This document shows positions 1 to 33,208 of a stretch of 33,208 bases of DNA, in pieces. The notes under the pieces were generated by a model that was not told the DNA's origin, searched no databases, and was given only the letters and a program-made list of their open reading frames with translations. This DNA is from a virus. Its lineage: Duplodnaviria > Heunggongvirae > Uroviricota > Caudoviricetes. The number at the start of each line of letters is the position of its first letter. The first letter of the stretch is position 1. The DNA lies in the IMG/VR virus record IMGVR_UViG_2579778919_000008. The stretch is one strand, 5' to 3'. Made by a program: the position numbers and the translations under genes.

Positions 1-645
1 TTGACGAAGAGCTTCGCTGACATTAAAAATCTCAATCCACAAAAGGTTCGTTTAGAAAGAATCCAGCAAACAGCCAATGACACAGCAATTTTCTCACCCG
101 ACAAATCGAAATATATTTTCGTCGGGAATGATGGCTGGGGGGCATTTGTTCAGGGGGGCGGGAGACTGGCGTTATCAGTAGAGGGGGGAGGAACAGGGGC
201 CGGAACGCCAGAGAAGGCACGCGATAACTTGGGTATTACAACCCTGCTTGATGGCAAACAGACTAAAGATAATACCCTGACGAATCTCAGCGGAAAAACC
301 GTCAGTCAGCTACTGGATTATCTGGGCGTTGGATATACCTGTACAGGGGTTAACACTCCTGAAATGATTTACACCCTGCCGGGAGGGGTGAAAATACAGA
401 TTTTCACTCGTTCACTTGGGCATTCTCAGTCTGAAGGCGTGATAACCACTACTCCATTGACATTCCCCCAGGCGTTTCCAGGTGGCGTCTGGGGTGTATT
501 CGCATCGAAAAAAACATTCGTACAGGTTGCCACATCATGCGAAGTGTGGACCCGAACGGGATTTAACGCCATTACCGCGAAACTGGCAAATACATCGTCT
601 CCGGAAACAACATCAGAAACCGTATTTATCGCTATAGGATGGTAA
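1..645 (+). CDS. Alternative tail-fibre distal (receptor-binding) segment S'v, 5'-partial
   Basis: ORF open to the window edge; translation carries a GGTG...EKARDNLG tail-fibre shaft motif homologous to the S protein and ends in ...IAIGW; followed by a Tfa-type chaperone. Confidence 0.6.
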   Translation: MTKSFADIKNLNPQKVRLERIQQTANDTAIFSPDKSKYIFVGNDGWGAFVQGGGRLALSVEGGGTGAGTPEKARDNLGITTLLDGKQTKDNTLTNLSGKTVSQLLDYLGVGYTCTGVNTPEMIYTLPGGVKIQIFTRSLGHSQSEGVITTTPLTFPQAFPGGVWGVFASKKTFVQVATSCEVWTRTGFNAITAKLANTSSPETTSETVFIAIGW

Positions 646-1088
646 AAATGAATTACGCATTCAGCCCAACAGAAAATACTTTTTATTGTTACGACTGGAA
701 ATCTGATTTTGATGCTGCCGGAACATGGCCGGCAGATGCAGTTGATATCAGCGATGAGGTTTATCTTGAATATTCCGGGAATCCGCCAGTGGGTAAAACA
801 CGAGTTGCCGGAGATGACGGATTGCCCGAATGGGCAGATATTCCTCCTCTTACAAAAGAGGATTTAATTGCCGCCACCGAATACGAGCGCCAGCGACGAA
901 TAGATGTCGCCAACGATTTTATGAACAGCAAACAATGGCCCGGTAAGGCGGCAATTGGTCGGCTGAAAGGTGACGAACTGACGCAGTACAACTTGTGGCT
1001 GGATTATCTGGATGCACTGGAAGCGGTAGACACCTCCAGTGCGCCGGATATCAAATGGCCTACGCCTCCGGGAGAACAGGCCAGTTAA
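639..1088 (+). CDS. Tail fibre assembly chaperone U' (Tfa family)
   Basis: 149 aa; C-terminal region ...LTQYNLWLDYLDALEAVDTSSAPDIKWPTPP matches the conserved Tfa C-terminal pattern; start overlaps the S'v stop. Confidence 0.7.
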   Translation: MVKMNYAFSPTENTFYCYDWKSDFDAAGTWPADAVDISDEVYLEYSGNPPVGKTRVAGDDGLPEWADIPPLTKEDLIAATEYERQRRIDVANDFMNSKQWPGKAAIGRLKGDELTQYNLWLDYLDALEAVDTSSAPDIKWPTPPGEQAS

Positions 1089-1458
1089 CATGTTCAGGGT
1101 CGGTTGTCACGTCAGCCGACTTAACCTCATTTTTATAGGCCAGCCACGCCGACAATTTAGCCTTGTTGACGTCGCTGATTTCACCCAACATCAATTCCGT
1201 GCGCCAGTCCTGCATAACAGCGTCAGCATGGGCCAGTAGTTGCCGGCGCTCATTTTCAGCAGCCTGTATAAGCTCTTCACGTGATTTTTGTGGAAGTGGT
1301 GGTGGATTAAATGCTTTACCATCATATCGCCATCCAATGCTGACCATGCCATCCGTTAAAATAGCGATGCCTGCATCGGGCTTCCATGTGGATTTTCCAT
1401 CCCACACGACAACATTGATGACCATACCATCTTCAACAACTGCATAAATTTGTGTCAT
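1060..1458 (-). CDS. Tail fibre assembly chaperone U (Tfa family)
   Basis: Start taken at internal Met ([11 protein letters not shown]...), whose ATG overlaps the S stop codon as TAATG; C-terminus ...DWRTELMLGEISDVNKAKLSAWLAYKNEV...VNWPVLPEA is Tfa-like. The 3' end overlaps U' convergently. Confidence 0.7.
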   Translation of the reverse strand: MTQIYAVVEDGMVINVVVWDGKSTWKPDAGIAILTDGMVSIGWRYDGKAFNPPPLPQKSREELIQAAENERRQLLAHADAVMQDWRTELMLGEISDVNKAKLSAWLAYKNEVKSADVTTDPEHVNWPVLPEA

Positions 1459-2606
1459 TACGCGTACTCCCACACAATAACAATACCTGCCATACCTGCT
1501 CCGCCAGCGCGTTGTTGTGTTGCGCCGCCATACATGCACGCACCACTTCCGCCACCTCCAGGACCATTGGCATTGATTCCCTCGCCAACAATAGCCTGCG
1601 CACCTGCGCCAGCACCCAGCACTGAACTGCCTCCGGGACCGCCTATAGCTAAAGAACCGGAAATCCTGAAACCTGGTGAACTGTATCCACAACCGCTGCC
1701 GTAAATATTTGCGCCAGTGAAACCAGGCACGAAATATGACCCATAAGGCCCCACAATGCCTAGCGATGTACCCTCCGAGAGAAGGTTTCCTCCCAGCCCG
1801 CCCAGAGCAACAATATCTGCTCCGAATGAGGTAGCGCCGCCATGTTGGCCAACAGCCGCACTTGTACCAATACCACCCGCGCCGATAGTGACAGTGGTCG
1901 CTACAGGATTATCAACGCGCGCCTTGACATATTCACCTGACATCCCACCGCCGCCGCAAGCCGCATTACTGTTTGTTCCGACCTGGCATCCACCACCGGC
2001 CCCGCCGCCACCAACCATCTCGACAATTGAAAATGTCGTACCAGGTGTTGGGGTGTAGGTTCCTGACGTTTTGAAAACCTGGCATTTCACCAGGCGACCA
2101 GTGCCATCACCGAGTCCAAGGTTTTTAAGGGATTCAGCCTTGTTCCTGCCTCCTGTACCTCCGCGACTCACAGGAAGCGGAATAACCTCACCAGACTCGA
2201 CGACCTCCGCTCCCCATTGCCCGTTTTCACGGATTACCAGACAATTTTTTTTGACAGGATCGTATACAACCGTCTGCCCATTAGTGGTGGGATTGATGAT
2301 GTCGTATAAACGAAGATTTTCGAGAGCCGTTTTCACGGTGCCATCCGATTTGATATCGCCAAACGGATTTGAGCGACTCAGTAACAGCGCTTTTAATGCT
2401 GTTAATAACTGGTTTTGTTTAGAAGGATCAACATTAATACCGGCAGCGTTCAGGACAGTAATAAGCTCCGACTGCGCATCTCTGACAGCTCCCTGCACGT
2501 TATTCAGATGCTCAGCATCAACAATGGTCCCCAGCTCACCTGTGAGCGGATTACCATCATGGAAAAGATTATCCGGCGTCTGCACCGGTGGCATTAAGGG
2601 CCGCAT
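1458..2606 (-). CDS. Tail fibre protein S (constant N-terminus plus glycine-rich distal domain)
   Basis: 382 aa; position after baseplate genes; shaft motif [22 protein letters not shown]; long Gly-rich C-terminal half; immediately followed by a Tfa chaperone. Confidence 0.75.
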
Positions 2607-23700: not shown

Positions 23701-23929
23701 CGCGCACCTCTCTGGCTCGTTTGATGGACATGTGTTTTGATGCCTGGCTCTGTGCCACCCATGCGCCCAGATAAGTGAAATACAGCTCACCCGGTGTTTC
23801 GGGACGGGTTACGGTGATCCAGACCAGCACGAAGGAACTGACCAGGAAGGCCAGAAAAACGATGGTATCTGACGTTGAGAGACGACCTGTGGCCGGGTTC
23901 GTCACCAGATCGCGCAGAGAGATCGTCAT
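23666..23929 (-). CDS. Holin-like small membrane protein
   Basis: 87 aa with one hydrophobic helix; start overlaps the endolysin stop (ATGA); position in lysis cassette. Confidence 0.4.
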   Translation of the reverse strand: MTISLRDLVTNPATGRLSTSDTIVFLAFLVSSFVLVWITVTRPETPGELYFTYLGAWVAQSQASKHMSIKRAREVRDVGSSPENPEG

Positions 23930-24570
23930 AGCGCCGCCTTAGCGACATTCAGCCGCGCCACACGGTCGGCCTGACCTTCAGCCGGAGGGTTGATACGGCG
24001 GGTGACAGCCAGAAAATCGCCTTTGTCCGCCAGCTCGTTGCAGCCATTTGCCTTCCAGTACCAGGCAGCGCTGCGGGCTGCGTTGAGATATTCCAGTAAC
24101 AAATCGGGATTAGCGATGAGATCGAGGCCCAGCGCCTTACCGCAAAGGAGGTAATTATTGCGCAGAGTAATCTGAATCAGGCCACGCCCGCGAAAGCGCC
24201 AGCCATCGCCTGACGCTTCATTACCGTTACCACCCTGATTTGCGTAAACATAATTCGCCATTTTTTCAGAGTTACGGGTATAGCGGCGGGCAAATTCAAT
24301 CTCACTGGGCTCGATAATACGATTCTTATTGAGATCGAAGTCGCTGCGGAAAATACGCGCCACGCGCTCAGCATCTGAATAATAGAGATTTTCACTGAGC
24401 CGACTGAAACCCGCGCTCTCATGGCCGGTTTGAGCAATAAAGGCGGCAAGCCGGGCGGGCGTATTAATCTGGAATTCAGCGGTGGCTTTACTGAATGGTT
24501 CAAACCAGCGTTGCGCCATCACTGGCGAAAGGCCTGCTGCTCGCTGAAATTGTGGGAGTGTTAAAAGCAT
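23926..24570 (-). CDS. Endolysin, glycoside hydrolase family 19-like
   Basis: 214 aa; motifs FIAQTGHESAGFSRLSENLYYS and GDGWRFRGRGLIQIT match GH19-type phage endolysins by recollection. Confidence 0.8.
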   Translation of the reverse strand: MLLTLPQFQRAAGLSPVMAQRWFEPFSKATAEFQINTPARLAAFIAQTGHESAGFSRLSENLYYSDAERVARIFRSDFDLNKNRIIEPSEIEFARRYTRNSEKMANYVYANQGGNGNEASGDGWRFRGRGLIQITLRNNYLLCGKALGLDLIANPDLLLEYLNAARSAAWYWKANGCNELADKGDFLAVTRRINPPAEGQADRVARLNVAKAAL

Positions 24571-24648: not shown

Positions 24649-25155
24649 TTATTGAGTAACATCAATTATCTCTACATCGTCACTTTCTTCAATATGCGAG
24701 GGAGGTGGGTTGTTAATTGCAAATTTACATTCCTTACCCTGTTTTATGTATGATTCACCCTGCGCATTCACAGTCTTAACATTATCAGTTTTTAATGAAG
24801 ATAGCCTTGCCATCCAATATGAGTAAGCAGTTGCTGGTAACGTAGCACAAGAGCTAAAAGGTGTAGGGTTTAAAAGAAGATTCTCCCCATACAATTTTTT
24901 CGCATCCTCATCAAGGAGGAGGAAATGACGACTCACTGCAACAACTTCAGGTGTAAGATATCCTAGGTTCTTGTACATATCAAAAACAGCAGTTGCACCC
25001 ATTAAAGTGCTCTGCGTTTCATTAAATATTCTTTTGGTTTCCTCAAGTTGATTTTTATAAGTTTCAACTGCTTTTGTATTGGGTACTGTTTTTGCTACTG
25101 CAGTAGTACTAAATACCACCAAGAAAAATGCCATATATCTCATTGCATTACACAT
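24649..25155 (-). CDS. AT-rich moron encoding a secreted/periplasmic protein of unknown function
   Basis: 168 aa with N-terminal signal peptide (FFLVVFSTTAVA-KT); markedly lower GC than flanking phage genes; start overlaps the mor stop (TAATG). Confidence 0.55.
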   Translation of the reverse strand: MCNAMRYMAFFLVVFSTTAVAKTVPNTKAVETYKNQLEETKRIFNETQSTLMGATAVFDMYKNLGYLTPEVVAVSRHFLLLDEDAKKLYGENLLLNPTPFSSCATLPATAYSYWMARLSSLKTDNVKTVNAQGESYIKQGKECKFAINNPPPSHIEESDDVEIIDVTQ

Positions 25156-25589
25156 TAGAATAATTTTCCTTGACTGTTACAACCTTTGTTTTTCTGCTGT
25201 GCAAGAAGTTCCCACGCAAAGCGATCACTGAATCCATACTTAGGGCAAAGAAAGGTCATGGCCATAAGAGAGGACGAACCCTGCTCACGCACCTCGGCGA
25301 ACTCGGCGAGAAAGCGACGATTACGTAATTCTCGAAGGGCACGATCACAGCGGGGTAAATAGAGGACTTCGCCGCCAAAATTCTTGATGAGTAATTGGGT
25401 TTTCTCATCGCCGATAGTATCGCGCAGGAGGGCTGCGCGGCTGGCCCCCATAGCGCGGAGGCCTTTACCTATCGGGAACGTGGTGCCACCAAAAGCAGAA
25501 AGAAGCTGCTCGGTCGCCGGGAAGCCTATCAGGTCAGCTATTTGTATCACTGCTGACGGCAGCAGCTCTGTTACCTGTTCCAGATTCAT
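25155..25589 (-). CDS. mor: Mor/C-family transcriptional activator
   Basis: Start at internal Met with GGGAG RBS; C-terminal signature GGEVLYLPR...RNRRFLAEF resembles the Mor/C GGxQVYIP motif. Confidence 0.65.
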   Translation of the reverse strand: MNLEQVTELLPSAVIQIADLIGFPATEQLLSAFGGTTFPIGKGLRAMGASRAALLRDTIGDEKTQLLIKNFGGEVLYLPRCDRALRELRNRRFLAEFAEVREQGSSSLMAMTFLCPKYGFSDRFAWELLAQQKNKGCNSQGKLF

Positions 25590-26010
25590 TATTACGCTCC
25601 CGTTTTTTTCGCCGACTCGCATCAATGCTGAGAGCCTGCATGAGTTTGGTTAACTGTTCTGTCGTCAACCACTCTATGTATTTGACGTGGAACATATGAT
25701 CGCACATTTTCTCGGCATAATTCCACGGACGTTTTGCATCTGCAAGTAATGCATGAATTTTAGCAAGAATTGATTCACGTGTTTTAGCAACTTTTGGACG
25801 TCGACCATGTTTTGCTGAGTAGCGAGGAAAACCCTTATCGTGCATATATTCCCTGACAGCCTGAAGCTCGTCGAGGGTGCATTTAGCGGATGATGTTTTA
25901 CCGTTGCATAAGCGAGACAACACGCTGCGGTAGGTAACATCATCCCATCCTAAATATGCCTGACCCGCTTTAATAGCCCCGATAAGGCCTCGTTTTGCTG
26001 GCGTGGACAT
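25534..26010 (-). CDS. GemA-like early regulatory protein (Mu gp16-like)
   Basis: 158 aa from internal Met with AGGAG RBS; segment KRGLIGAIKAGQAYLGWDDVTYRSVL...GKTSSAKCTLDEL resembles the GemA family by recollection; position just upstream of mor. Confidence 0.55.
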   Translation of the reverse strand: MSTPAKRGLIGAIKAGQAYLGWDDVTYRSVLSRLCNGKTSSAKCTLDELQAVREYMHDKGFPRYSAKHGRRPKVAKTRESILAKIHALLADAKRPWNYAEKMCDHMFHVKYIEWLTTEQLTKLMQALSIDASRRKKRERNNESGTGNRAAAVSSDTNS

Positions 26011-26071
26011 AATATTTCTCCTGTTGGTTGCCATTATCGCAGGCACTTTGTGAAGTGCCTGCTGTAATGAC

Positions 26072-26287
26072 TTACTTTAAAGGTTCCATTTTGCTGACGG
26101 ATATGCCACCGATTTTCCCTTCGACCCTGACAACCAGACGACCATTGCGCATATGCCAAGCTTCTGAGCGGGTTATTACGGTCTCCCGTTCGGGCATACC
26201 TGGTGTCGGGTGATACAGGAAACTGGAGCCGACAGGAAAACGCTGGTTAAATGTCTTCGCCGTCAGGTTTCTGAGCAGACTTTTCAT
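26072..26287 (-). CDS. Small protein, paralogue of 28424..28615
   Basis: 72 aa from internal Met with GGAGGA RBS; shares FNQRFPVGSSFLY motif with the other copy. Confidence 0.45.
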   Translation of the reverse strand: MKSLLRNLTAKTFNQRFPVGSSFLYHPTPGMPERETVITRSEAWHMRNGRLVVRVEGKIGGISVSKMEPLK

Positions 26288-26468
26288 CGTTCTCCTCCAT
26301 ATGTGCATCAGTTGCAATAATGCTTAATGGCCATAAGAGAAATGCGACCCAGCAATTCTGGCGGGATAAATTAGCTAATCCCACTAATCGGACCAGGATG
26401 CATGCCCAACACCAGCCAAGAGTTAAATACATCGCCAGAAATATGAGGACCAAAGCTATATCCATCAC
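26247..26468 (-). CDS. Small hydrophobic membrane protein
   Basis: 73 aa with two predicted hydrophobic helices; ATGA overlap with upstream ORF. Confidence 0.35.
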   Translation of the reverse strand: MMDIALVLIFLAMYLTLGWCWACILVRLVGLANLSRQNCWVAFLLWPLSIIATDAHMEENDEKSAQKPDGEDI

Positions 26469-26680
26469 TGAATACCCCTAAGTTTCTTGAAAGACTCAAT
26501 CGCCTTTCTCATATCAGCCTGAGTCCCCTTGTTACGAACGTTGCGGTTACTCGCATCGTAATAGTTGAATCGCAGCTTAAGAGGCACCGACAACAACTCA
26601 ACAACCTGGCTGTTATCGCGGAAGAACCAGACTCGGCGGTTTCCGTTATCCTGAAACTGGCAGCCCGTTACGCTATGCAT
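26465..26680 (-). CDS. Hypothetical small protein
   Basis: 71 aa; start overlaps the upstream NDT-like gene by 8 nt. Confidence 0.4.
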   Translation of the reverse strand: MHSVTGCQFQDNGNRRVWFFRDNSQVVELLSVPLKLRFNYYDASNRNVRNKGTQADMRKAIESFKKLRGIQ

Positions 26681-27038
26681 AACTCACCTCCGCTAATGGG
26701 TGAAGCTTACGGTGGATCGCAATCGACACACTTTCCCAGCTCTGGTAAAGGAACAGCAGGCCCAGCTCACAGGCGCGATCAAACTCTCTGGTAGCGCCGG
26801 TACTCTTTTCCCACCCGTTCAGGAGGAAAACAGCATCAGCCTGCTCAAGCATGGACAATGTAATTTGCAGGTACTGCTCATGCTGCAAGCCGTCAGGAAG
26901 AATGGCCGGATTGAGAACGGTAAAGCCGCGTTCTTCCAAGATGCGAGCCTCAGCGTTGAATTCATCACGGTTAAAGTTGTGATAACCGGTCATCGGCCCC
27001 GCTATGAAAACGACAGGTTTAAGCGGTAGTTCGCTCAT
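26673..27038 (-). CDS. Nucleoside 2-deoxyribosyltransferase-like protein (DUF4406-type)
   Basis: 121 aa; N-terminal VVFIAGPMTG followed by VLNP and ADAVFLLNGWEKSTGATRE, the pattern of NDT-like/DUF4406 proteins by recollection; GAGGAAGG RBS. Confidence 0.6.
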   Translation of the reverse strand: MSELPLKPVVFIAGPMTGYHNFNRDEFNAEARILEERGFTVLNPAILPDGLQHEQYLQITLSMLEQADAVFLLNGWEKSTGATREFDRACELGLLFLYQSWESVSIAIHRKLHPLAEVSYA

Positions 27039-27165
27039 GCTGCCTTCCTCAGCTCTACGTAAGACATTACGAATACATCGGCAGTGTAGATATCAGATCG
27101 AATATCATCGCCAGTCGCCATGAAATAGATGGCCAGCACTAATGCCATGGCATAAAACAGATATT

Positions 27166-27627
27166 TCACTTGTCTTCTCCTGTATTGCCTTTCACCAATT
27201 CCAGCAGTTCAAAATGCTCCGGGCGCATACCGTTGATACTGACCTGCACGCCACAGCACCGACACGGGTTACTAACAAACTCCAGGCCCCGTCTAGAACC
27301 TTTCAACGTTTTGATTGTTCCCTCCGTGCCAGCGGGCAATTTAGCCCAGCCATTTGCTGTTTCTCGCTTAAGAACAACGGTTGCTCCGTGCCACTCATAA
27401 AGGCGTTTGGGGTGCTTGATGGCGATTGCACGCCCTCCACCATACGGCAATGGTTTAACCAGCGCGTTTGCCCGAGCGAGCTGGACATCAAGCTCTGTAG
27501 CCAGTCGGCTGACCAGCTTTGCGATCTCGATTAAGGGGGTATCAGCATCCATTGCTGCTGCGAGTTCGTGGCCAGCTCGCACCAGTTCTCTGACTGGTGA
27601 TGTTTCCAGTTGAGGCGAGGTTTTCAT
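27166..27627 (-). CDS. Hypothetical early protein with C-terminal cysteine cluster
   Basis: 154 aa from internal Met with GGAG RBS; ATGA overlap with upstream gene; C-terminal CRCCG cluster. Confidence 0.45.
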   Translation of the reverse strand: MKTSPQLETSPVRELVRAGHELAAAMDADTPLIEIAKLVSRLATELDVQLARANALVKPLPYGGGRAIAIKHPKRLYEWHGATVVLKRETANGWAKLPAGTEGTIKTLKGSRRGLEFVSNPCRCCGVQVSINGMRPEHFELLELVKGNTGEDK

Positions 27628-28343
27628 TTTGTTACTCCGATCTGTTCGCATTTATTAGCTGAACTGCTTACCGCGTGATGCAGCTGCGCATTGCGGCCAG
27701 CCAGATACCCCTCGTTTTCCGCCTTATCCGTTCCCCTGGCTTTGCCGGGTTTACGCGGCTCCAGCTTTTTCATTCCTTCACTTAATTTCCTGCTGCGGTA
27801 GCACTCCATCAGAGTTGTCTCCGCCTCCGTGACGGCGAAATCACTGACAACGGCATAAGCACCGTTGACCCAGGCGGAGCAGAAGGTATCGGCGCGGGCA
27901 ACTTTAGTGACCTGTTTGATGTTCTTGCGTAACGTGGAGAGGTATTCACGACGGGCTTTCGCCAGTTGTTTACCCAGAACTTCGAATGAATATGCGGCGA
28001 TTTGTGGCCGTTCGTCCGGACCGTAGAACGTGATGGTCATTCTGGCCGGAGCATCCCAGTTATCCCGGCCATAACTGCTGTAAAACTTCACGCCAAATAC
28101 CCGCGATACCATCTCAGCAAGAAACGCCATGTATTCAGGCATTTTCTTTGCGTGAGATGGCGCTTTCTGGGTCGATGCTTCATTGATATCCATCAAATCA
28201 GTATCAGCCTCAGTCAGCTTGTGGGTTTCCATCAGGCGCTGGGCGCGGCTCAGCGCGAGTGCTGCTTCTTCAGCGCTGGAGTTATTACGCGCCATTGCCA
28301 GCAGTTTTTTAATACGCTGGAGATATTTCTCTTTATTTTCCAT
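27624..28343 (-). CDS. Hypothetical early protein, possibly DUF2786-like
   Basis: 239 aa; N-terminus KYLQRIKKLLAMARNNSSAEEAALALSRAQRLMETHKL resembles the DUF2786 N-terminal helix pattern by recollection; AAGGAG RBS. Confidence 0.5.
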   Translation of the reverse strand: MENKEKYLQRIKKLLAMARNNSSAEEAALALSRAQRLMETHKLTEADTDLMDINEASTQKAPSHAKKMPEYMAFLAEMVSRVFGVKFYSSYGRDNWDAPARMTITFYGPDERPQIAAYSFEVLGKQLAKARREYLSTLRKNIKQVTKVARADTFCSAWVNGAYAVVSDFAVTEAETTLMECYRSRKLSEGMKKLEPRKPGKARGTDKAENEGYLAGRNAQLHHAVSSSANKCEQIGVTK

Positions 28344-28423
28344 TACAGAACTCCTTAATTAAGGCGTAAGCCAGCCCCGACGGGTTTACGCCATATTTAA
28401 AACAGGTTTAATTAAAAGTTATT

Positions 28424-28615
28424 TCAGCCAGCAGGAATCAGCGATTTAATATTGGCGAAATAAGGTTCCTGGTTTATTTCAACTACCGATACATCGCGGC
28501 AGTCACGAGCCTGGTCAACGGTGCTGACGACCTTACCGCCACGTAAAACCGGATTTGGCTGATAAATAAAGACGCTGCCAACCGGGTATCGCTGATTGAA
28601 CTCTTTAGCTTTCAT
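28424..28615 (-). CDS. Small protein, paralogue of 26072..26287
   Basis: 63 aa from internal Met; shares FNQRYPVGSVFIY motif with the other copy. Confidence 0.45.
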   Translation of the reverse strand: MKAKEFNQRYPVGSVFIYQPNPVLRGGKVVSTVDQARDCRDVSVVEINQEPYFANIKSLIPAG

Positions 28616-28838
28616 CCGGAATCCCCCAACCACGATTCGCCGCATGAAGACAGAACTCCATTCGCGATATTGCCCAGATAGAATTGACCTCTGTTTTCGC
28701 CAGGCTGAATGCAGTTTTCCAGGCTGTTGCAGCGTTATGGAAATTGCCAACTTGCTCAGCAAGTACAGCGCTGACTGCATAAGACATAAATGGACTGCAT
28801 GGTTTACGGGCATGGGCGCGATCTACCAGAACATACAT
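28605..28838 (-). CDS. Possible small gene filling the 224-bp gap (hypothetical)
   Basis: 77-codon open frame whose ATG lies 1 nt after the upstream stop (TGATATG); no clear RBS, so uncertain. Confidence 0.3.
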   Translation of the reverse strand: MYVLVDRAHARKPCSPFMSYAVSAVLAEQVGNFHNAATAWKTAFSLAKTEVNSIWAISRMEFCLHAANRGWGIPDES

Positions 28839-28839
28839 A

Positions 28840-29490
28840 TCACACCCCCGCACCGGCAATATCGAGAGCAATCGGACGATATTCATCCGAGTCACCAACA
28901 CGTTCATACACGCGGATATAAGAACGGCTACCGACGACCTGCACCGCTTCACCGATTGCCTGCATGGCTTGCTGCCAGCGTTCATCATCAATTTCCAGGC
29001 GACGAAGTGCCAGAACGCGCCCGGTATTGATATTGCCTTCTTTGTCAGTATCAAACGCCTCATTGACCAGCGCCTTCAGCTCCGGGCGGGCACCTTCTGT
29101 CCAGTCAGCAAGACAGGTATCAATAAGCGCCTTTGCAGTCTGTATACGCTCGTCCAGGGCAATTCTGTCCTGCATGGCTCGCTGGATTTTGAAACGGCCA
29201 TCAAAGCTGTAGAGCGTGACATTACCTTTTTTACCGCCTTTGGTGGCCCCGTATTTTTCAGCCGAAAGGTCGATAAACGCCTGAATATCAGCAAAGGCGC
29301 GTGATTTCAGCTCACTCAGAGCAGAGGAAACGACAATCGCCTGCTCAACAAGTTCGCCAACGAGCTGGTCGCGATCGCGGTCGATTTCTTTAATCAGACT
29401 GACTGGCGTCAGAACGCCGCGAGCATCAGTCCAGTATCCCTCTGGAGCCTGGGTGGTAGTGTATTGTTTGATGGTGTTTTCAGTGGACAT
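28840..29490 (-). CDS. Conserved early-region protein of unknown function
   Basis: 217 aa from internal Met with GGGGAAG RBS; charged helical protein; family not recognised with certainty. Confidence 0.5.
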   Translation of the reverse strand: MSTENTIKQYTTTQAPEGYWTDARGVLTPVSLIKEIDRDRDQLVGELVEQAIVVSSALSELKSRAFADIQAFIDLSAEKYGATKGGKKGNVTLYSFDGRFKIQRAMQDRIALDERIQTAKALIDTCLADWTEGARPELKALVNEAFDTDKEGNINTGRVLALRRLEIDDERWQQAMQAIGEAVQVVGSRSYIRVYERVGDSDEYRPIALDIAGAGV

Positions 29491-29671
29491 TGGACTTCCC
29501 CTTTTTCTGGATTGCATTACGGATTTTTTCGTTAACATGGCCAGCCAGGCCATACCCCACAGTGGCTGCGACCTTCTGGGTCAGTTCACTGTCTTTTTCA
29601 TCTGGAAAAACCTGGCACTCCACACTGATGCCGCGCGGTGCATCGGTTATGCTGATTACGACTTTTGCCAC
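29480..29671 (-). CDS. Hypothetical small protein
   Basis: 63 aa with AAGGAG RBS; tightly packed after the preceding gene. Confidence 0.45.
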   Translation of the reverse strand: MAKVVISITDAPRGISVECQVFPDEKDSELTQKVAATVGYGLAGHVNEKIRNAIQKKGKSNVH

Positions 29672-29982: not shown

Positions 29983-30876
29983 TTAATGGATCAGCATTTC
30001 GGCTATCTGATTGACGATATGACCGCTGACCGGAACATCATTCATTGCACTGGTACGAACTGCACCGCGCAGTAGCTTGAACAGTCGGCGGGCATTACCT
30101 TTTGATGCGTTGAACAGCGCTTTGCTCAGGTCTTCATTCAGGCCATCCGGGAGAACGCTGCTGGCGATGACGTCAATATCAGCACCCGGCAGGCTATGCC
30201 CGAGGTTGAGGGCGAAACCGACACGGCTATAGAGCTGTACGAGCTCACCGCGTTTGCCCTTGAGGTTCAGAATCAGGCGAGGCATACCAACCAGGACGAT
30301 GCCGATCCCCGTTTTGTCATGAATGCGGCGGATAGATTCCAGCGCACGCAGAGGGAGGTTCTCAGCTTCATCAATAATCAGCACGCGCCCAGAGTCGCGC
30401 AGCTTGTTGATGCAGGCTTCGCTAAGTTCATGCATATTGCCGCGGGTACTGAGCCCCAGCAGGTTGCAGAGTTCTTCCAGGATTACGCGTGCGGTGTAGC
30501 CAGGGTCGGCCTCAATCAGCAACGCATCCCGGTATTTAGAGACGTAGGCTTTGCAAATCATCGTCTTGCCCAGACCGGCTTCGCCGTAAAGCACGTTGAT
30601 ATCACCTTCGACGTGCGCCATGCGTATAACATCAACGGCTTTGCGCGTTGTTGGGGTATCAACAAATTTGACGCTGATACGTGCCGAGCGCTCTTTTTCA
30701 TGCTGACGATCGATAAAGCTACGAATATCGTTTTCCAGCGATGCAATATCGCCGTCGTATTTATTATTCAGGTACTGGCTGATTACGGCAGAGCTCTTAC
30801 CAATAGCGCGGGCGACCTGCGTCTGGTTAAGACCTTTTGCTTTCATCAGTTCGACAAGTTCATTTTTAGCTGACAT
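29983..30876 (-). CDS. B: Transposition ATPase B (MuB-like AAA+ protein)
   Basis: 297 aa; N-terminal HTH-like segment and Walker A GEAGLGKT; directly downstream of the transposase with GAGGAAG RBS. Confidence 0.85.
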   Translation of the reverse strand: MSAKNELVELMKAKGLNQTQVARAIGKSSAVISQYLNNKYDGDIASLENDIRSFIDRQHEKERSARISVKFVDTPTTRKAVDVIRMAHVEGDINVLYGEAGLGKTMICKAYVSKYRDALLIEADPGYTARVILEELCNLLGLSTRGNMHELSEACINKLRDSGRVLIIDEAENLPLRALESIRRIHDKTGIGIVLVGMPRLILNLKGKRGELVQLYSRVGFALNLGHSLPGADIDVIASSVLPDGLNEDLSKALFNASKGNARRLFKLLRGAVRTSAMNDVPVSGHIVNQIAEMLIH

Positions 30877-30921: not shown

Positions 30922-32979
30922 TCAGAAGGCCGCTTTTTTATTGCCCTGACTTTTCAGCCACTCTTCTCGCTCTGACTCGAACAGGAACACGTGTTCCCGG
31001 TCATCATTAATACGCTCGGCATCTGATGGTATTAATGCGCCGAAATCAGGGTACATATCGCTTTCTGGCAGCAGTCCTCGCGCCTCTGCTTCAATCTCTT
31101 CTCGCTGTTCGTCAATGCGCTTCAGACGACGTTGGCGGCGTTTCTCAACGGCGATATCCATCATGCTGGTTGGCAGCGCGGCACGCTTGTTGCCGTTCCA
31201 GATGGCGGTGCAGACATAAGTACCGTCCATACGGCGAACGATGACGGCGGCAGGGTCGTGAATGTCATAGGCAACACGAACCTCTTCACCATCGACCTGT
31301 ATCAGGTCAGCGCTGAAATACTGGTTGTTCATCAGGTCAATCCAGCCTCTCTGGGCCGTACGGCACATTTCCGGCATGAAGGCTTCACGAAGTTCGATAT
31401 CCGTCAGATATTCAATCTCGTCCCCCTCAGTGGCCAGGACCTCGCGACGGTACTGTGCTGGCGTCATATGAACACCATTACGCTTCGGTAACTCGCTGTG
31501 CTCATGCAGGTTGTTGTATTTGTCGACTTCCTCGGCAATGGTATCCAGCAGCATCTGCCATGACGGCAGTTTACGCAGCGCATTACGCTGTACGCTCGTG
31601 AGCTCGCGGCCATTCTCCTGAGCCTTAATCGCTGACTGGATGGCGCGACCGGTCATCCGGACATGCTCACGGTCGGCCCCGAATCCGTTGTAAGTATCAA
31701 ATTTGTTGGCGATCGCTCTCGGTATTACGGCGTTCAGGCGTTCGATAATCCCGCGAGACTGAGGTCGGCCAGGAATACTGGTCGGGTGATCAATCCCCAT
31801 GCGGGTGAAAATACCGGTGATATCAGCATCCAGCGTTTTGTTCGTTTCGCCGCCACCGTTATCCGAATAAACAAAAAGAGGTTTCCCGTGGAATTTCATG
31901 GCGTAGCGATAGGCATCCGCTACGGCGATGACGTTCTCCGAGAGCGCCAGGCTCCAGCCCACCAGGAAGCGGGTTCGTCCATCAATCACCAGCGTCAGTT
32001 CGGGCGTGAATGGGCGACCATGGACCGGATGAGCAACTTTCATATCCAGCGATTTACCATCCGCAATCCAGCAACCATTTACGGGCATCTGTGACCAGTC
32101 ACGTTTCTGGTAAACCTCAAAGGCCAGAGCCGCTGAACCGCTGATACGGCCGCGAGCGCGTTCACGTTTGGGCAATTTTTCCATCGCACGGCGAACGGCA
32201 TCATAAGACGGACAGACGGCGAGCATCGCTGGCTGTCCCGCATAAATAGCCTGCCATTCAGTCTTGAATGAACGCCACGCATCCACCAGGGAAGGGCCTG
32301 AGAGTTTCCGCCAGTGGGCGAGAAAATCAGGGAGCCACTTAATCTGTTCAGGCTTACGCGCTTTAAGATGGCCAGGGGCCAGTAAAGCAAGACGTTCGAT
32401 ACCTGGACGGGTTGAAAGGTAAACAGACAACCATTCCTGGAGTGTTCTTTCACCCACGCCACGGCGGCTGGAGCCTTTACGGGCATTCGCAATATCAGCC
32501 GCAGCCTGGATGTTCTCCGGCAGCGAACCCTTGCGCGACTCTTTGGCGATGAACTCAACCGCCGATGCGCGAGACATACCGATATCCCGAAGGCGCTCAA
32601 CCTCTGCGGCTAATAATGCACGCGCATCGGCGATCTGTTTCTGGCGTTCGGTAAGGTCGGAAACTTCACGCTCCAGCAATACCGGGCACTGCCGTAATAA
32701 CGCCAGCTCATCACGGGTCGTGGTGACTTCCCGCTTTGGTGCCGTTGGAGCAACTGAACAATCAGACTGTTTCAACACCTCGCGATAATGCCGGGCTTTG
32801 ACTATTTCACGCGCCTGTTCAGGCAGGCAGTCGATGTGGTACTCGAATGCTTTGCTGCCAGCACGTTTGCGAACCAGTTCAGGGGAGTTGCCTGCACTTT
32901 TTTTAAGGCTGTATCGCAGTCCTTGTTGTGTTGTTGGCAATCCAGGGACGCCAACTAATTCGTTAACAGTCACGAACAT
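30922..32979 (-). CDS. A: DDE transposase A (MuA-like)
   Basis: 685 aa; N-terminal DNA-binding domains and central catalytic core typical of MuA; start 2 nt after the ner stop. Confidence 0.9.
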   Translation of the reverse strand: MFVTVNELVGVPGLPTTQQGLRYSLKKSAGNSPELVRKRAGSKAFEYHIDCLPEQAREIVKARHYREVLKQSDCSVAPTAPKREVTTTRDELALLRQCPVLLEREVSDLTERQKQIADARALLAAEVERLRDIGMSRASAVEFIAKESRKGSLPENIQAAADIANARKGSSRRGVGERTLQEWLSVYLSTRPGIERLALLAPGHLKARKPEQIKWLPDFLAHWRKLSGPSLVDAWRSFKTEWQAIYAGQPAMLAVCPSYDAVRRAMEKLPKRERARGRISGSAALAFEVYQKRDWSQMPVNGCWIADGKSLDMKVAHPVHGRPFTPELTLVIDGRTRFLVGWSLALSENVIAVADAYRYAMKFHGKPLFVYSDNGGGETNKTLDADITGIFTRMGIDHPTSIPGRPQSRGIIERLNAVIPRAIANKFDTYNGFGADREHVRMTGRAIQSAIKAQENGRELTSVQRNALRKLPSWQMLLDTIAEEVDKYNNLHEHSELPKRNGVHMTPAQYRREVLATEGDEIEYLTDIELREAFMPEMCRTAQRGWIDLMNNQYFSADLIQVDGEEVRVAYDIHDPAAVIVRRMDGTYVCTAIWNGNKRAALPTSMMDIAVEKRRQRRLKRIDEQREEIEAEARGLLPESDMYPDFGALIPSDAERINDDREHVFLFESEREEWLKSQGNKKAAF

Positions 32980-32980
32980 G

Positions 32981-33208
32981 TCACAGGTCCTTGTTGTAAC
33001 GGCTTGGCCAGATACTGGCGGGTTCTAAATTGAGAGCATTTGCAATAATGCGCTCTCCTTTTGGATAAGAGCGTGCCAGCGCATTTTTCAGCGTGTCGGG
33101 TTTTAGTCCCGCGCTGGCGGAAAGGCCGCGCATAGTGACGCCACGCTTGTGCAGCTCGGCGACGATATCAATGCGATGCCAGTCACGCTGTACTTCATTT
33201 CTTTCCAT
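32981..33208 (-). CDS. ner: Ner-like DNA-binding regulator
   Basis: 75 aa; RDWHRIDIVAELHKRG...PKGERIIANALNLEPASIWPSRY closely resembles Mu Ner; ATG is the last three bases of the window. Confidence 0.8.
   Translation of the reverse strand: MERNEVQRDWHRIDIVAELHKRGVTMRGLSASAGLKPDTLKNALARSYPKGERIIANALNLEPASIWPSRYNKDL

What the first reader, a model, noticed from the sequence alone, without database searches (positions are those of the whole stretch)
26673..27038. Nucleoside 2-deoxyribosyltransferase-like (DUF4406-type) protein in the early accessory region
The 121-aa protein has the VFIAGPMTG…VLNP…AVFLLNGWEKSTGA pattern of NDT-like/DUF4406 proteins, a fold that binds or hydrolyses nucleotides. 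It sits in a tightly coupled early operon with several unknown small proteins (26247..28343). An early-expressed nucleotide-binding or nucleotide-processing protein is a plausible host-takeover or anti-defence factor (for example sequestering or degrading nucleotide signals), or it may act in nucleotide salvage or DNA modification. Its function is not established.
Basis: partly seen in the sequence, partly recalled or inferred. Interest (0 to 1): 0.55.

Follow-up and report, generated by a model that had tools for sequence, protein, structure and literature searches.

The report
DUF4406 nucleotide-site protein, Mu-like prophage
This is a real, conserved early gene of a Mu-like prophage encoding a small protein of the uncharacterised but very common phage family DUF4406, whose conserved residues suggest it binds, and probably cleaves the base from, a nucleoside 5'-monophosphate rather than acting as the "nucleoside deoxyribosyltransferase" it is usually annotated as; its biological role is still unknown.

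Summary

Residue mapping refines the reading. The nucleophile Glu (E85) and all 5'-phosphate-binding elements of DNPH1/MilB are kept (G14-P-M-T-G18, S79, G81). True NDTs have Asp where this family has Ser. The other two triad residues are missing: F11 replaces Tyr, as in ribo-specific MilB, and T60 replaces Asp.

My best reading (about 0.45) is a stand-alone nucleotide N-glycosidase that edits the nucleotide pool. The rivals are a non-catalytic nucleotide binder, an enzyme acting on NMN/NAD+/ADP-ribose-type substrates, and a classical NDT.

No conserved partner gene, defence-library match or publication establishes a function. The anti-defence idea is neither supported nor excluded. This is an ordinary member of a known, uncharacterised family, of moderate-to-low interest.

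The parts
26673..27038 (-). DUF4406 gene: 121 aa, ATG start, TAG stop. Identical to E. coli SCD1 ESA29148.1.
   Evidence: purifying selection
27043..27050 (-). Shine-Dalgarno-like GAGGAAGG, 4 nt upstream of the ATG
   Evidence: read directly from the sequence
26985..26999 (-). Codons for G14-P-M-T-G18, the Gly-rich loop. It aligns with the DNPH1 loop G27-S-I-R-G31, whose backbone amides bind the 5'-phosphate.
   Evidence: conservation; alignment; DNPH1 contacts from PMC3834327
27006..27008 (-). Codon for F11, at the position of the triad Tyr (hDNPH1 Y24, LlNDT Y7, DmtZ Y6) and of MilB F17. The family has Y in 64 and F in 26 of 93 sequences.
26904..26912 (-). Codons for N43-P44-A45, an invariant or near-invariant family motif at the end of strand 2. 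P44 aligns with DmtZ P57 (the transferase-type Pro) and with the DNPH1 general base E55.
26859..26861 (-). Codon for T60, at the position of the triad Asp/Asn (hDNPH1 D80, MilB D78, DmtZ N77, LlNDT D72). The position is variable in the family (C 47, T 15, D 13, G 9 of 93).
26784..26804 (-). Codons for S79-T-G81-A82-T-R-E85. S79 and G81 align with the phosphate ligands of DNPH1 (S98/G100) and MilB (S97/G99). E85 aligns with the covalent nucleophile Glu.
26673..26741 (-). Codons for the C-terminal tail (about residues 100-121). It has low model confidence (pLDDT 56-61) and is conserved only within the enterobacterial clade. Its end overlaps the start of the next gene.
27035..27169 (-). Context: upstream 44-aa hydrophobic ORF, coupled at both ends (GTGA and ATGA overlaps). 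It is not annotated in the E. coli relative.
27166..27627 (-). Context: 153-aa unknown protein (weak match to phrog_492; contains a CxCC motif). ATGA overlap with the DUF2786 gene.
27624..28343 (-). Context: DUF2786/DUF7168 protein (phrog_421), the first gene of the overlapping chain
26465..26680 (-). Context: downstream 71-aa unknown protein (phrog_9400). Its start overlaps the DUF4406 stop by 8 nt.
26072..26287 (-). Context: 71-aa unknown protein (phrog_19503), the last gene before GemA. It is a paralogue of the small protein at 28424..28615.

Best explanation
The ORF encodes a genuine DUF4406 protein, a four-stranded minimal version of the nucleoside 2-deoxyribosyltransferase (NDT) superfamily fold. 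It is expressed from the Mu-type early transcript as a stand-alone accessory gene. SHOWN: family membership, the fold, purifying selection, translational coupling and the position in the early region. SHOWN BY ALIGNMENT: it keeps the covalent-nucleophile Glu (E85) and the full 5'-phosphate-binding apparatus of the nucleotide N-glycosidases DNPH1/Rcl and MilB (the G14..G18 loop, S79 and G81). True nucleoside transferases have Asp where this family has Ser. INFERRED: it binds a nucleoside 5'-monophosphate-type ligand and cleaves the N-glycosidic bond through a glycosyl-E85 intermediate, releasing free base and (deoxy)ribose 5-phosphate. That would irreversibly remove one nucleotide species from the pool during lytic growth. 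FURTHER INFERRED: because F11 occupies the position where MilB F17 allows ribonucleotides (F17Y switches MilB from CMP to dCMP), this F11/T60 subtype may accept 2'-OH-bearing (ribo) substrates. The identity of the base and the biological purpose (pool sanitising, pool remodelling or counter-defence) are not determined.
Against: Two of the three canonical triad residues are absent here. F11 replaces Tyr, and Y6A abolishes DmtZ activity. T60 replaces Asp/Asn, and that position is not conserved in the family. P44 replaces the water-activating E55 of DNPH1. The domain has only four strands and lacks the C-terminal segment that completes the site across the dimer in NDT and DNPH1. Glu and the phosphate ligands would also be conserved in a protein that only binds its ligand. 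Coupling to NTP pyrophosphatases is a minority pattern: 0 of 52 neighbour clusters among the closest 80 viral loci, and none in this window. No biochemical or genetic data exist for any DUF4406 protein.
Confidence: 0.45

Rival explanations
1. A non-catalytic nucleotide-binding protein ('sponge' or sensor). It uses the retained phosphate and ribose site to sequester a nucleotide or nucleotide-derived signal without cleaving it.
For: The triad is incomplete in this clade (F11, T60). The protein is small, has a single domain and is an early-expressed accessory gene with no partner. In DNPH1 the same Glu hydrogen-bonds the ribose hydroxyls, so Glu conservation is compatible with binding alone.
Against: The top 50-60 hits of both PDB searches are NDT-superfamily enzymes, TIR domains and other flavodoxin-like folds, and no phage sponge protein is among them. 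Near-invariance of the nucleophile Glu in its exact motif register is typical of the enzymes. MilB is active with Phe at the Tyr position. Sequestration needs stoichiometric abundance, which was not assessed.
Confidence: 0.2
2. An N-glycohydrolase acting on a phosphoribosyl compound other than a plain NMP, such as NMN, NAD+, ADP-ribose or cADPR-type signals. This would parallel the NADase chemistry of TIR domains and the retron Ec86 NDT effector, which share this fold.
Against: Sequence profiles link the family to NDT, MilB and BlsM, not to TIR. There was no Pfam TIR or SLOG hit and no PADLOC hit. Depleting NAD+ would harm the phage's own replication. No neighbourhood link to NAD+ metabolism was seen.
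Confidence: 0.12
3. A classical nucleoside 2-deoxyribosyltransferase (EC 2.4.2.6) used for deoxynucleoside salvage, as many phage genome annotations state.
For: Database labels on homologues. The invariant P44 matches the Pro described as conserved in transferases. The nearest PDB sequence hit is TbNDRT.
Against: PF05014 scores 13.4 bits against a cut-off of 28.8, and PF15891 19.7 against 30. Ser replaces the Asp that binds the 5'-OH. The triad Tyr and Asp are absent. The alignment to LlNDT ends at residue 116, before Asn123 and the C-terminal Tyr157, and the model has only four strands.
Confidence: 0.08
4. A decoy subunit. A truncated NDT/TIR-like domain co-assembles with host NDT- or TIR-type immune effectors, whose active sites form across subunits, and poisons them.
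For: This is inference only. The domain is truncated to four strands, it resembles oligomerising TIR and NDT effectors in fold, and it is an early accessory gene.
Against: The strong conservation of the small-molecule-binding residues (S79, G81, E85 and the Gly loop) would not be needed for a decoy. No co-variation with any host system was examined or seen.
Confidence: 0.03

Closest known systems
Pfam DUF4406 (PF14359), e.g. Mycobacterium phage Gaia gp125 and Vibrio phage 1.093.O gp58
   Same: Full-length HMM match. All family-invariant positions are present. Same length of about 90-100 aa for the core, and the same habit of sitting among early accessory genes of temperate phages.
   Different: It belongs to the F11/T60 active-site subtype, whereas the family majority is Y/C. 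It has a clade-specific tail of about 22 aa. No member has a known function.
DNPH1/Rcl (2'-deoxynucleoside 5'-phosphate N-hydrolase)
   Different: Y24 becomes F11, D80 becomes T60, and the general base E55 becomes P44. There are four strands rather than five. The dimer-partner loop (Ser117'/Met119' in the rat enzyme) has no counterpart. hhalign gives only E = 2e-4 and probability 46%.
MilB/BcmB/BlsM (CMP or hydroxymethyl-CMP N-glycosidases)
   Different: MilB Asp78, Phe22 and Arg23 correspond to T60, M16 and T17. There is no link to a MilA/ThyA-like hydroxymethylase gene. Sequence similarity is marginal (E 0.14-0.78).
DmtZ of Gordonia phage Ghobes / Arthrobacter phage Wayne (dAMP N-glycosidase and deoxyribose-5-phosphate transferase, NAR 2026)
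   Same: A phage-encoded small NDT-superfamily protein with a phosphate pocket built from uncharged residues plus the transferase-type Pro. The Glu nucleophile aligns.
   Different: It is a different family. DmtZ has no DUF4406 Pfam hit, hhalign gives E = 0.03 and it ranks 50th in BFVD. DmtZ has a Y6-N77-E103 triad and is tied to PurZ0/DutZ in Z-genome phages. Neither is present here. The two families are found in different sets of phage records.
Nucleoside 2-deoxyribosyltransferases (L. leichmannii NDT, T. brucei NDRT)
   Same: Same fold and the same AGP-type N-terminal motif. TbNDRT is the best sequence-profile hit in the PDB, and the nucleophile Glu aligns.
   Different: Ser replaces the Asp that binds the 5'-OH. 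The triad Tyr and Asp are lacking. The C-terminal elements are lacking. The match is below the Pfam gathering threshold.
PDB 1T1J (structural-genomics target APC5043, 'hypothetical protein'; Pfam DUF1937)
   Different: Only 15% identity, and it is itself uncharacterised, so it adds no functional information.

Membership tests
Pfam DUF4406 (PF14359) | Score above the curated gathering threshold over the full model | tested here: met
   95.9 bits against a cut-off of 22, E = 1.9e-27, profile positions 2-89 of 91
Pfam DUF4406 (PF14359) | Family-invariant residues present (G14, M16, G18, F27, N43-P44-A45, P48, Y56, M63, W76, S79, G81, A82, E85, A89) | tested here: met
   All are present in the window protein
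NDT superfamily (fold level) | Flavodoxin-like alpha/beta fold that superposes on NDT, DNPH1 and MilB | tested here: met
NDT superfamily (fold level) | Nucleophile Glu in the [D/S/T]-x-G-x-x-x-E motif | tested here: met
   E85 aligns with the catalytic Glu in four alignments
NDT superfamily (fold level) | Tyr-Asp/Asn-Glu catalytic triad | tested here: not met
   F11 and T60 occupy the Tyr and Asp positions. Phe at the Tyr position is tolerated in MilB.
Nucleoside 2-deoxyribosyltransferase sensu stricto (PF05014, EC 2.4.2.6) | Pfam gathering score | tested here: not met
   13.4 bits against 28.8; PF15891 19.7 against 30
Nucleoside 2-deoxyribosyltransferase sensu stricto (PF05014, EC 2.4.2.6) | Asp at the 5'-OH site (LlNDT D92) | tested here: not met
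   S79 aligns with D92 and with the Asp of TbNDRT and LmPDT. Ser is found in 91 of 93 family members.
Nucleoside 2-deoxyribosyltransferase sensu stricto (PF05014, EC 2.4.2.6) | C-terminal segment that completes the neighbouring subunit's site (LlNDT Asn123, Tyr157) | tested here: not met
   The alignment ends at LlNDT residue 116. The model has four strands and a low-confidence tail.
Nucleoside 2-deoxyribosyltransferase sensu stricto (PF05014, EC 2.4.2.6) | Deoxyribosyl transfer between bases | not testable with these tools
   Needs an enzyme assay
DNPH1/MilB-type nucleotide N-glycosidases | 5'-phosphate ligands: Ser/Thr-x-Gly before the Glu, plus a Gly-rich N-terminal loop | tested here: met
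   S79/G81 and G14..G18 align with S98/G100 and G27..G31 of hDNPH1 and with S97/G99 of MilB
DNPH1/MilB-type nucleotide N-glycosidases | General-acid Asp (D80 in hDNPH1, D78 in MilB) | tested here: not met
   T60 at this position; the family has C, T, D or G
DNPH1/MilB-type nucleotide N-glycosidases | Significant sequence similarity to the family | tested here: inconclusive
   hhalign to hDNPH1 gives E = 2e-4 but probability 46%. The profile search gives E = 0.14 for BcmB and 0.78 for BlsM.
DNPH1/MilB-type nucleotide N-glycosidases | Hydrolysis of NMP or dNMP to base plus (deoxy)ribose 5-phosphate | not testable with these tools
   Needs an enzyme assay
DmtZ (Z-genome phage dAMP hydrolase/transferase) | Sequence membership, and genomic linkage to PurZ0/DutZ | tested here: not met
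   hhalign E = 0.03. DmtZ has no DUF4406 hit. No PurA-like or Dut gene is annotated in the 89%-identical E. coli prophage.
Known anti-phage-defence or counter-defence families | Match to a curated defence model, or to a known sponge or nuclease fold | tested here: not met
   PADLOC gave no hit and NCBIfam gave no hit. No sponge or ring-nuclease structure is among the top PDB hits.
TIR domain | Pfam TIR match and TIR-type catalytic Glu context | tested here: inconclusive

The most novel reading that the evidence does not exclude
DUF4406 proteins are a widespread class of phage counter-defence enzymes that destroy nucleoside-monophosphate-type alarm molecules or their precursors by cutting off the base. 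Candidate targets are dAMP/dIMP, which feed Kongming dITP signalling (T5 Dmp is already known to defeat Kongming by removing dAMP), m6-dAMP, which triggers PUA-Cal-HAD filaments, or a ribo-type signal for the F11/T60 subtype. This would be a new chemical route of immune evasion: N-glycosidic cleavage rather than phosphodiester cleavage, dephosphorylation or sequestration.
Probability: 0.12. Interest if true: 0.75.

Novelty: new member of a known kind. Interest (0 to 1): 0.35.

Why it matters
DUF4406 is one of the more common uncharacterised small domains in phage genomes. It matches 8,289 clusters at 50% identity and 477 of 50,697 deposited phage records. It is routinely annotated as 'nucleoside 2-deoxyribosyltransferase'. 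The residue analysis here suggests that label is probably wrong, because the family has a phosphate pocket rather than a 5'-OH pocket and lacks two of the three canonical triad residues. It also gives concrete hypotheses that are cheap to test: the substrate is an NMP or dNMP, the Tyr/Phe at position 11 sets sugar specificity, and E85 is the nucleophile. Nucleotide pools and nucleotide-derived signals are now central to phage-host conflict, so an abundant early phage enzyme that removes a specific nucleotide irreversibly would be relevant. For this particular window, however, the finding is a routine member of a known family, already annotated as DUF4406 in close relatives.

Tried and rejected
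1. Single-sequence search of the PDB found only a chance hit to TYK2. A profile was needed.
2. NCBIfam and PADLOC gave no hits for the protein or its neighbours.
3. Literature: only 3 papers mention DUF4406, none functional, and none mention PF14359. No overexpression or phenotype data were found. One search was wasted on an ambiguous term. Two wanted papers were not held.
4. Association with DNA methyltransferases looked promising from individual loci. It was rejected as a general rule: only 2 of 52 de-duplicated neighbour clusters are methyltransferases, and no methyltransferase is annotated in the close E. coli relative of this prophage.
5. Local coupling to an NTP pyrophosphatase is absent in the window and in the 80 closest viral loci. 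It exists only in more distant members.
6. DUF6378, which is fused to DUF4406 in P0050/P0051, could not be shown to be a MazG- or DUF5664-type pyrophosphatase. It has no PDB hit, its PHROG label 'phosphofructokinase' is unconvincing, and BLASTP against the DUF5664 protein of phage DrRobert gives E = 0.064.
7. DmtZ was tested as a possible characterised member of the family and rejected.
8. P0107, a 2,134-aa protein with 21 matching stretches, is a low-complexity repeat artefact.
9. The model coordinates are not exposed, so pocket geometry, dimer prediction and ligand docking could not be done.
10. The first residue-mapping script was wrong because of trimming and was redone.

Full report
**1. 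The observation**

The coordinates 26673..27038 hold an ORF on the minus strand. The plus-strand frame is interrupted by stops. The ORF encodes 121 aa, from ATG to TAG, and contains the quoted strings VFIAGPMTG, VLNP and AVFLLNGWEKSTGA.

A GAGGAAGG ribosome-binding site lies just upstream of the ATG. The gene is part of a chain of overlapping genes:
- The DUF2786/DUF7168 gene (28343..27624) overlaps a 153-aa ORF by ATGA.
- That ORF overlaps a 44-aa hydrophobic ORF by GTGA.
- The 44-aa ORF overlaps the DUF4406 ATG by ATGA.
- The DUF4406 stop overlaps the next 71-aa ORF by 8 nt.
- That ORF overlaps a 73-aa ORF by GTGA.

Promoter-like and terminator-like sites are no more frequent here than in shuffled sequence.

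The ORF is a real gene. dN/dS is 0.12 (dS 0.80) and 0.25 against two orthologous loci. The exact protein is on record as ESA29148.1 of E. coli SCD1, in a 246-member cluster at 90% identity spread over Escherichia, Citrobacter, Enterobacter and Salmonella.

**2. Context**

The window is a Mu-like prophage read on the minus strand. The gene order is:
- Ner-like protein (32981..33208)
- MuA transposase (30922..32979)
- MuB-like AAA ATPase (29983..30876)
- DUF3164 (28840..29553)
- the overlapping gene chain described above
- GemA (25534..26046) and Mor (25155..25625)
- GH19 endolysin (23926..24570)
- head and tail genes, including the gpT major head protein (13995..14903)

An 89%-identical prophage in E. 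coli FDAARGOS_1303 has the same order, and PGAP already labels its orthologue 'DUF4406 domain-containing protein'. By synteny with Mu (established knowledge), the region between B and gemA is the semi-essential early region. That supports the word 'early'.

**3. Family and fold**

- Pfam DUF4406 matches at E = 1.9e-27. The true NDT models fall below their thresholds (PF15891 19.7 bits against 30; PF05014 13.4 against 28.8).
- PHROG 355, labelled 'nucleoside 2-deoxyribosyltransferase', matches at 1.1e-33.
- The exhaustive search found 8,289 representatives at 50% identity.
- tblastn found the family in 477 phage records across Vibrio, Gordonia, Arthrobacter, Mycobacterium, Pseudomonas and enterobacterial phages.
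- An AF2 model built from a 93-sequence alignment has pLDDT above 95 for residues 9-100. It shows four strands and four helices, followed by a low-confidence tail.
- Foldseek ranks TbNDRT, CtNDT, DNPH1 and MilB/BcmB.
- The family profile reaches TbNDRT at E = 2.8e-5 in the PDB.

The NDT-like fold is therefore supported.

**4. Catalytic-residue check**

I aligned the family profile to TbNDRT, LmPDT and BcmB, to human DNPH1, to L. leichmannii NDT and to phage DmtZ. I accept them because they place the published residues at the published numbers: Y24, R30, E55, H56, D80, S98 and E104 for DNPH1 (and the mutant names); Y7, D72, D92, E98, N123 and Y157 for LlNDT.

All four alignments give the same map:

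| Window residue | Equivalent in characterised enzymes | Family conservation |
|---|---|---|
| E85 | Covalent nucleophile: E104 (DNPH1), E103 (MilB, DmtZ), E98 (LlNDT) | 90/93 |
| S79, G81 | Phosphate ligands: S98/G100 (DNPH1), S97/G99 (MilB), T97/G99 (DmtZ). The nucleoside enzymes LlNDT, TbNDRT and LmPDT have Asp at the first position | 91/93 each |
| G14-P-M-T-G18 | The Gly-rich loop whose backbone amides hold the phosphate in DNPH1 | G14 92/93, G18 90/93 |
| P44 | DmtZ P57, described as conserved in transferases and shielding the site from water. DNPH1 has the general base E55 here | 93/93 |
| F11 | Triad Tyr: Y24 (DNPH1), Y7 (LlNDT), Y6 (DmtZ) | Y 64, F 26 |
| T60 | Triad Asp/Asn: D80 (DNPH1), D78 (MilB), N77 (DmtZ) | C 47, T 15, D 13, G 9 |

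The phosphate-binding roles come from PMC3834327, PMC4081090 and PMC12884076.

The enterobacterial Mu-like clade is fixed for the F11/T60 pair. Among distant representatives, F pairs with T in 10 of 34 cases and Y pairs with T in 2 of 100. These sequences are not phylogenetically independent.

MilB naturally has Phe at the Tyr position (F17), and the F17Y mutation reverses its preference from CMP to dCMP.

**5. Interpretation**

The family keeps what is needed to hold a 5'-phosphorylated (deoxy)ribose next to a nucleophilic Glu. It lacks what defines a nucleoside transferase. It also lacks two of the three triad residues that tune catalysis in DNPH1, NDT and DmtZ.

I therefore favour a nucleotide N-glycosidase of the DNPH1/MilB type in mechanism, though not a member of those families, with Phe-type members possibly tolerating ribose. 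I give this a confidence of about 0.45. A binding-only role (0.2), a different phosphoribosyl substrate such as NMN, NAD+ or ADPR-type molecules (0.12), and a classical NDT (0.08) remain open.

Supporting context:
- A distant phage cousin, DmtZ, is an experimentally proven dAMP N-glycosidase and transferase.
- Bona fide DUF4406 genes overlap a MazG gene in phage Gaia and a dUTPase gene in Vibrio phage 1.093.O.
- phrog_12019, labelled 'MazG-like pyrophosphatase', contains a DUF4406 segment.
- BFVD contains proteins with this fold that are named after the DUF5664 dNTP diphosphohydrolase domain.
- All of these partners produce (d)NMPs.

**6. What the neighbourhood does not show**

I took 80 viral loci encoding the closest relatives and reduced the flanking ORFs to 52 clusters. 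These were dominated by lambdoid and Mu early accessory genes (Ead/Ea22, DUF1627, DUF977, HTH proteins). There was one Dam methylase, one C5 methylase and no NTP pyrophosphatase.

A Brenneria Mu-like prophage keeps DUF4406 in the same region but with different neighbours. The gene therefore behaves as a stand-alone, mobile accessory gene.

The methyltransferase association suggested by individual loci does not hold up.

**7. Comparison with known systems and novelty**

The protein is a clear member of DUF4406, a known but uncharacterised family, and close relatives are already annotated as such. It is not a member of PF05014 NDTs, DNPH1/MilB or DmtZ, because defining features were tested and not met.

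Nothing links it to a known defence or counter-defence family. Recent work makes NMP-level signalling and precursor removal plausible targets: T5 Dmp removes dAMP to defeat Kongming, and m6-dAMP is the trigger for PUA-Cal-HAD. That connection is inference only.

**8. Verdict**

The finding is a new member of a known kind, and I score its interest at 0.35. The useful outputs are a probable correction to the common 'nucleoside 2-deoxyribosyltransferase' label and a set of specific, cheap biochemical tests.

Noticed in passing
window 27035..27169 (-): A 44-aa ORF with a hydrophobic N-terminus (MKYLFYAMALVLAIYFMATG...). It overlaps the upstream gene by GTGA and the DUF4406 gene by ATGA. It is not annotated in the 89%-identical E. 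coli prophage, where a 128-nt gap sits at this place. It may be a small membrane protein that annotation has missed.
   Followed up: partly
window 28424..28615 (-) and 26072..26287 (-): Two small paralogous proteins flank the gene block (42% identity over 45 aa, E = 6e-11; shared motif FNQR[FY]PVGSxFxYxPxP; phrog_5591/phrog_19503). The mechanically listed 129-aa ORF at 28424..28813 probably starts at its Met67 (ATG at 28615). The E. coli relative annotates a 63-aa gene at the corresponding place.
   Followed up: partly
window 25200..28950 compared with L001: Similarity to the E. coli FDAARGOS_1303 prophage is a mosaic. The DUF4406 gene lies in a 99.3%-identical island (26700..26999; dS 0.012), while flanking segments fall to 68-86% identity. 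This suggests recent recombination, or strong conservation of this gene relative to its neighbours.
   Followed up: partly
family-wide (alignment A1, position 60 of the window protein): In most DUF4406 proteins the position equivalent to the catalytic Asp of NDT/DNPH1 is Cys, usually paired with Tyr at position 11 (61 of 137 distant representatives). The window's clade has Thr paired with Phe. This co-varying pair next to the nucleophile Glu is unexplained and may define functional subtypes.
   Followed up: partly
window 27166..27627 (-): A 153-aa unknown protein immediately upstream contains a Cys cluster (NPCRCCGV). It has only sub-threshold zinc-finger and phrog_492 matches. Its function is unknown.
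   Followed up: no
window 1..2606: The left end has tail-fibre-related genes on opposite strands: an ORF at 1..645 and a Caudo_TAP tail-fibre assembly gene at 639..1088 on the plus strand, against a Gly-rich tail-fibre-like gene at 1458..2606 on the minus strand. The E. coli relative has a recombinase at this end of the prophage. This resembles a Mu G-segment-type invertible host-range region.
   Followed up: no
L009 5381..5827: In a Brenneria Mu-like prophage, a protein with a weak ASCH (PUA-like) domain match, a domain type that binds modified nucleotides, lies three genes downstream of DUF4406 and just before GemA.
   Followed up: no
L007 1489..1857 (Arthrobacter phage Kepler gp54); similar case in phage Brynnie: The gene under the DUF4406 tblastn match is annotated 'deoxycytidylate deaminase', although it is only 122 aa and the match covers most of it. 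This is probably a mis-annotation that has propagated in the Arthrobacter phage records.
   Followed up: no
P0107 (from the representative search): A 2,134-aa 'protein' gave 21 matching stretches. It is a low-complexity tandem-repeat translation and a spurious hit.
   Followed up: yes
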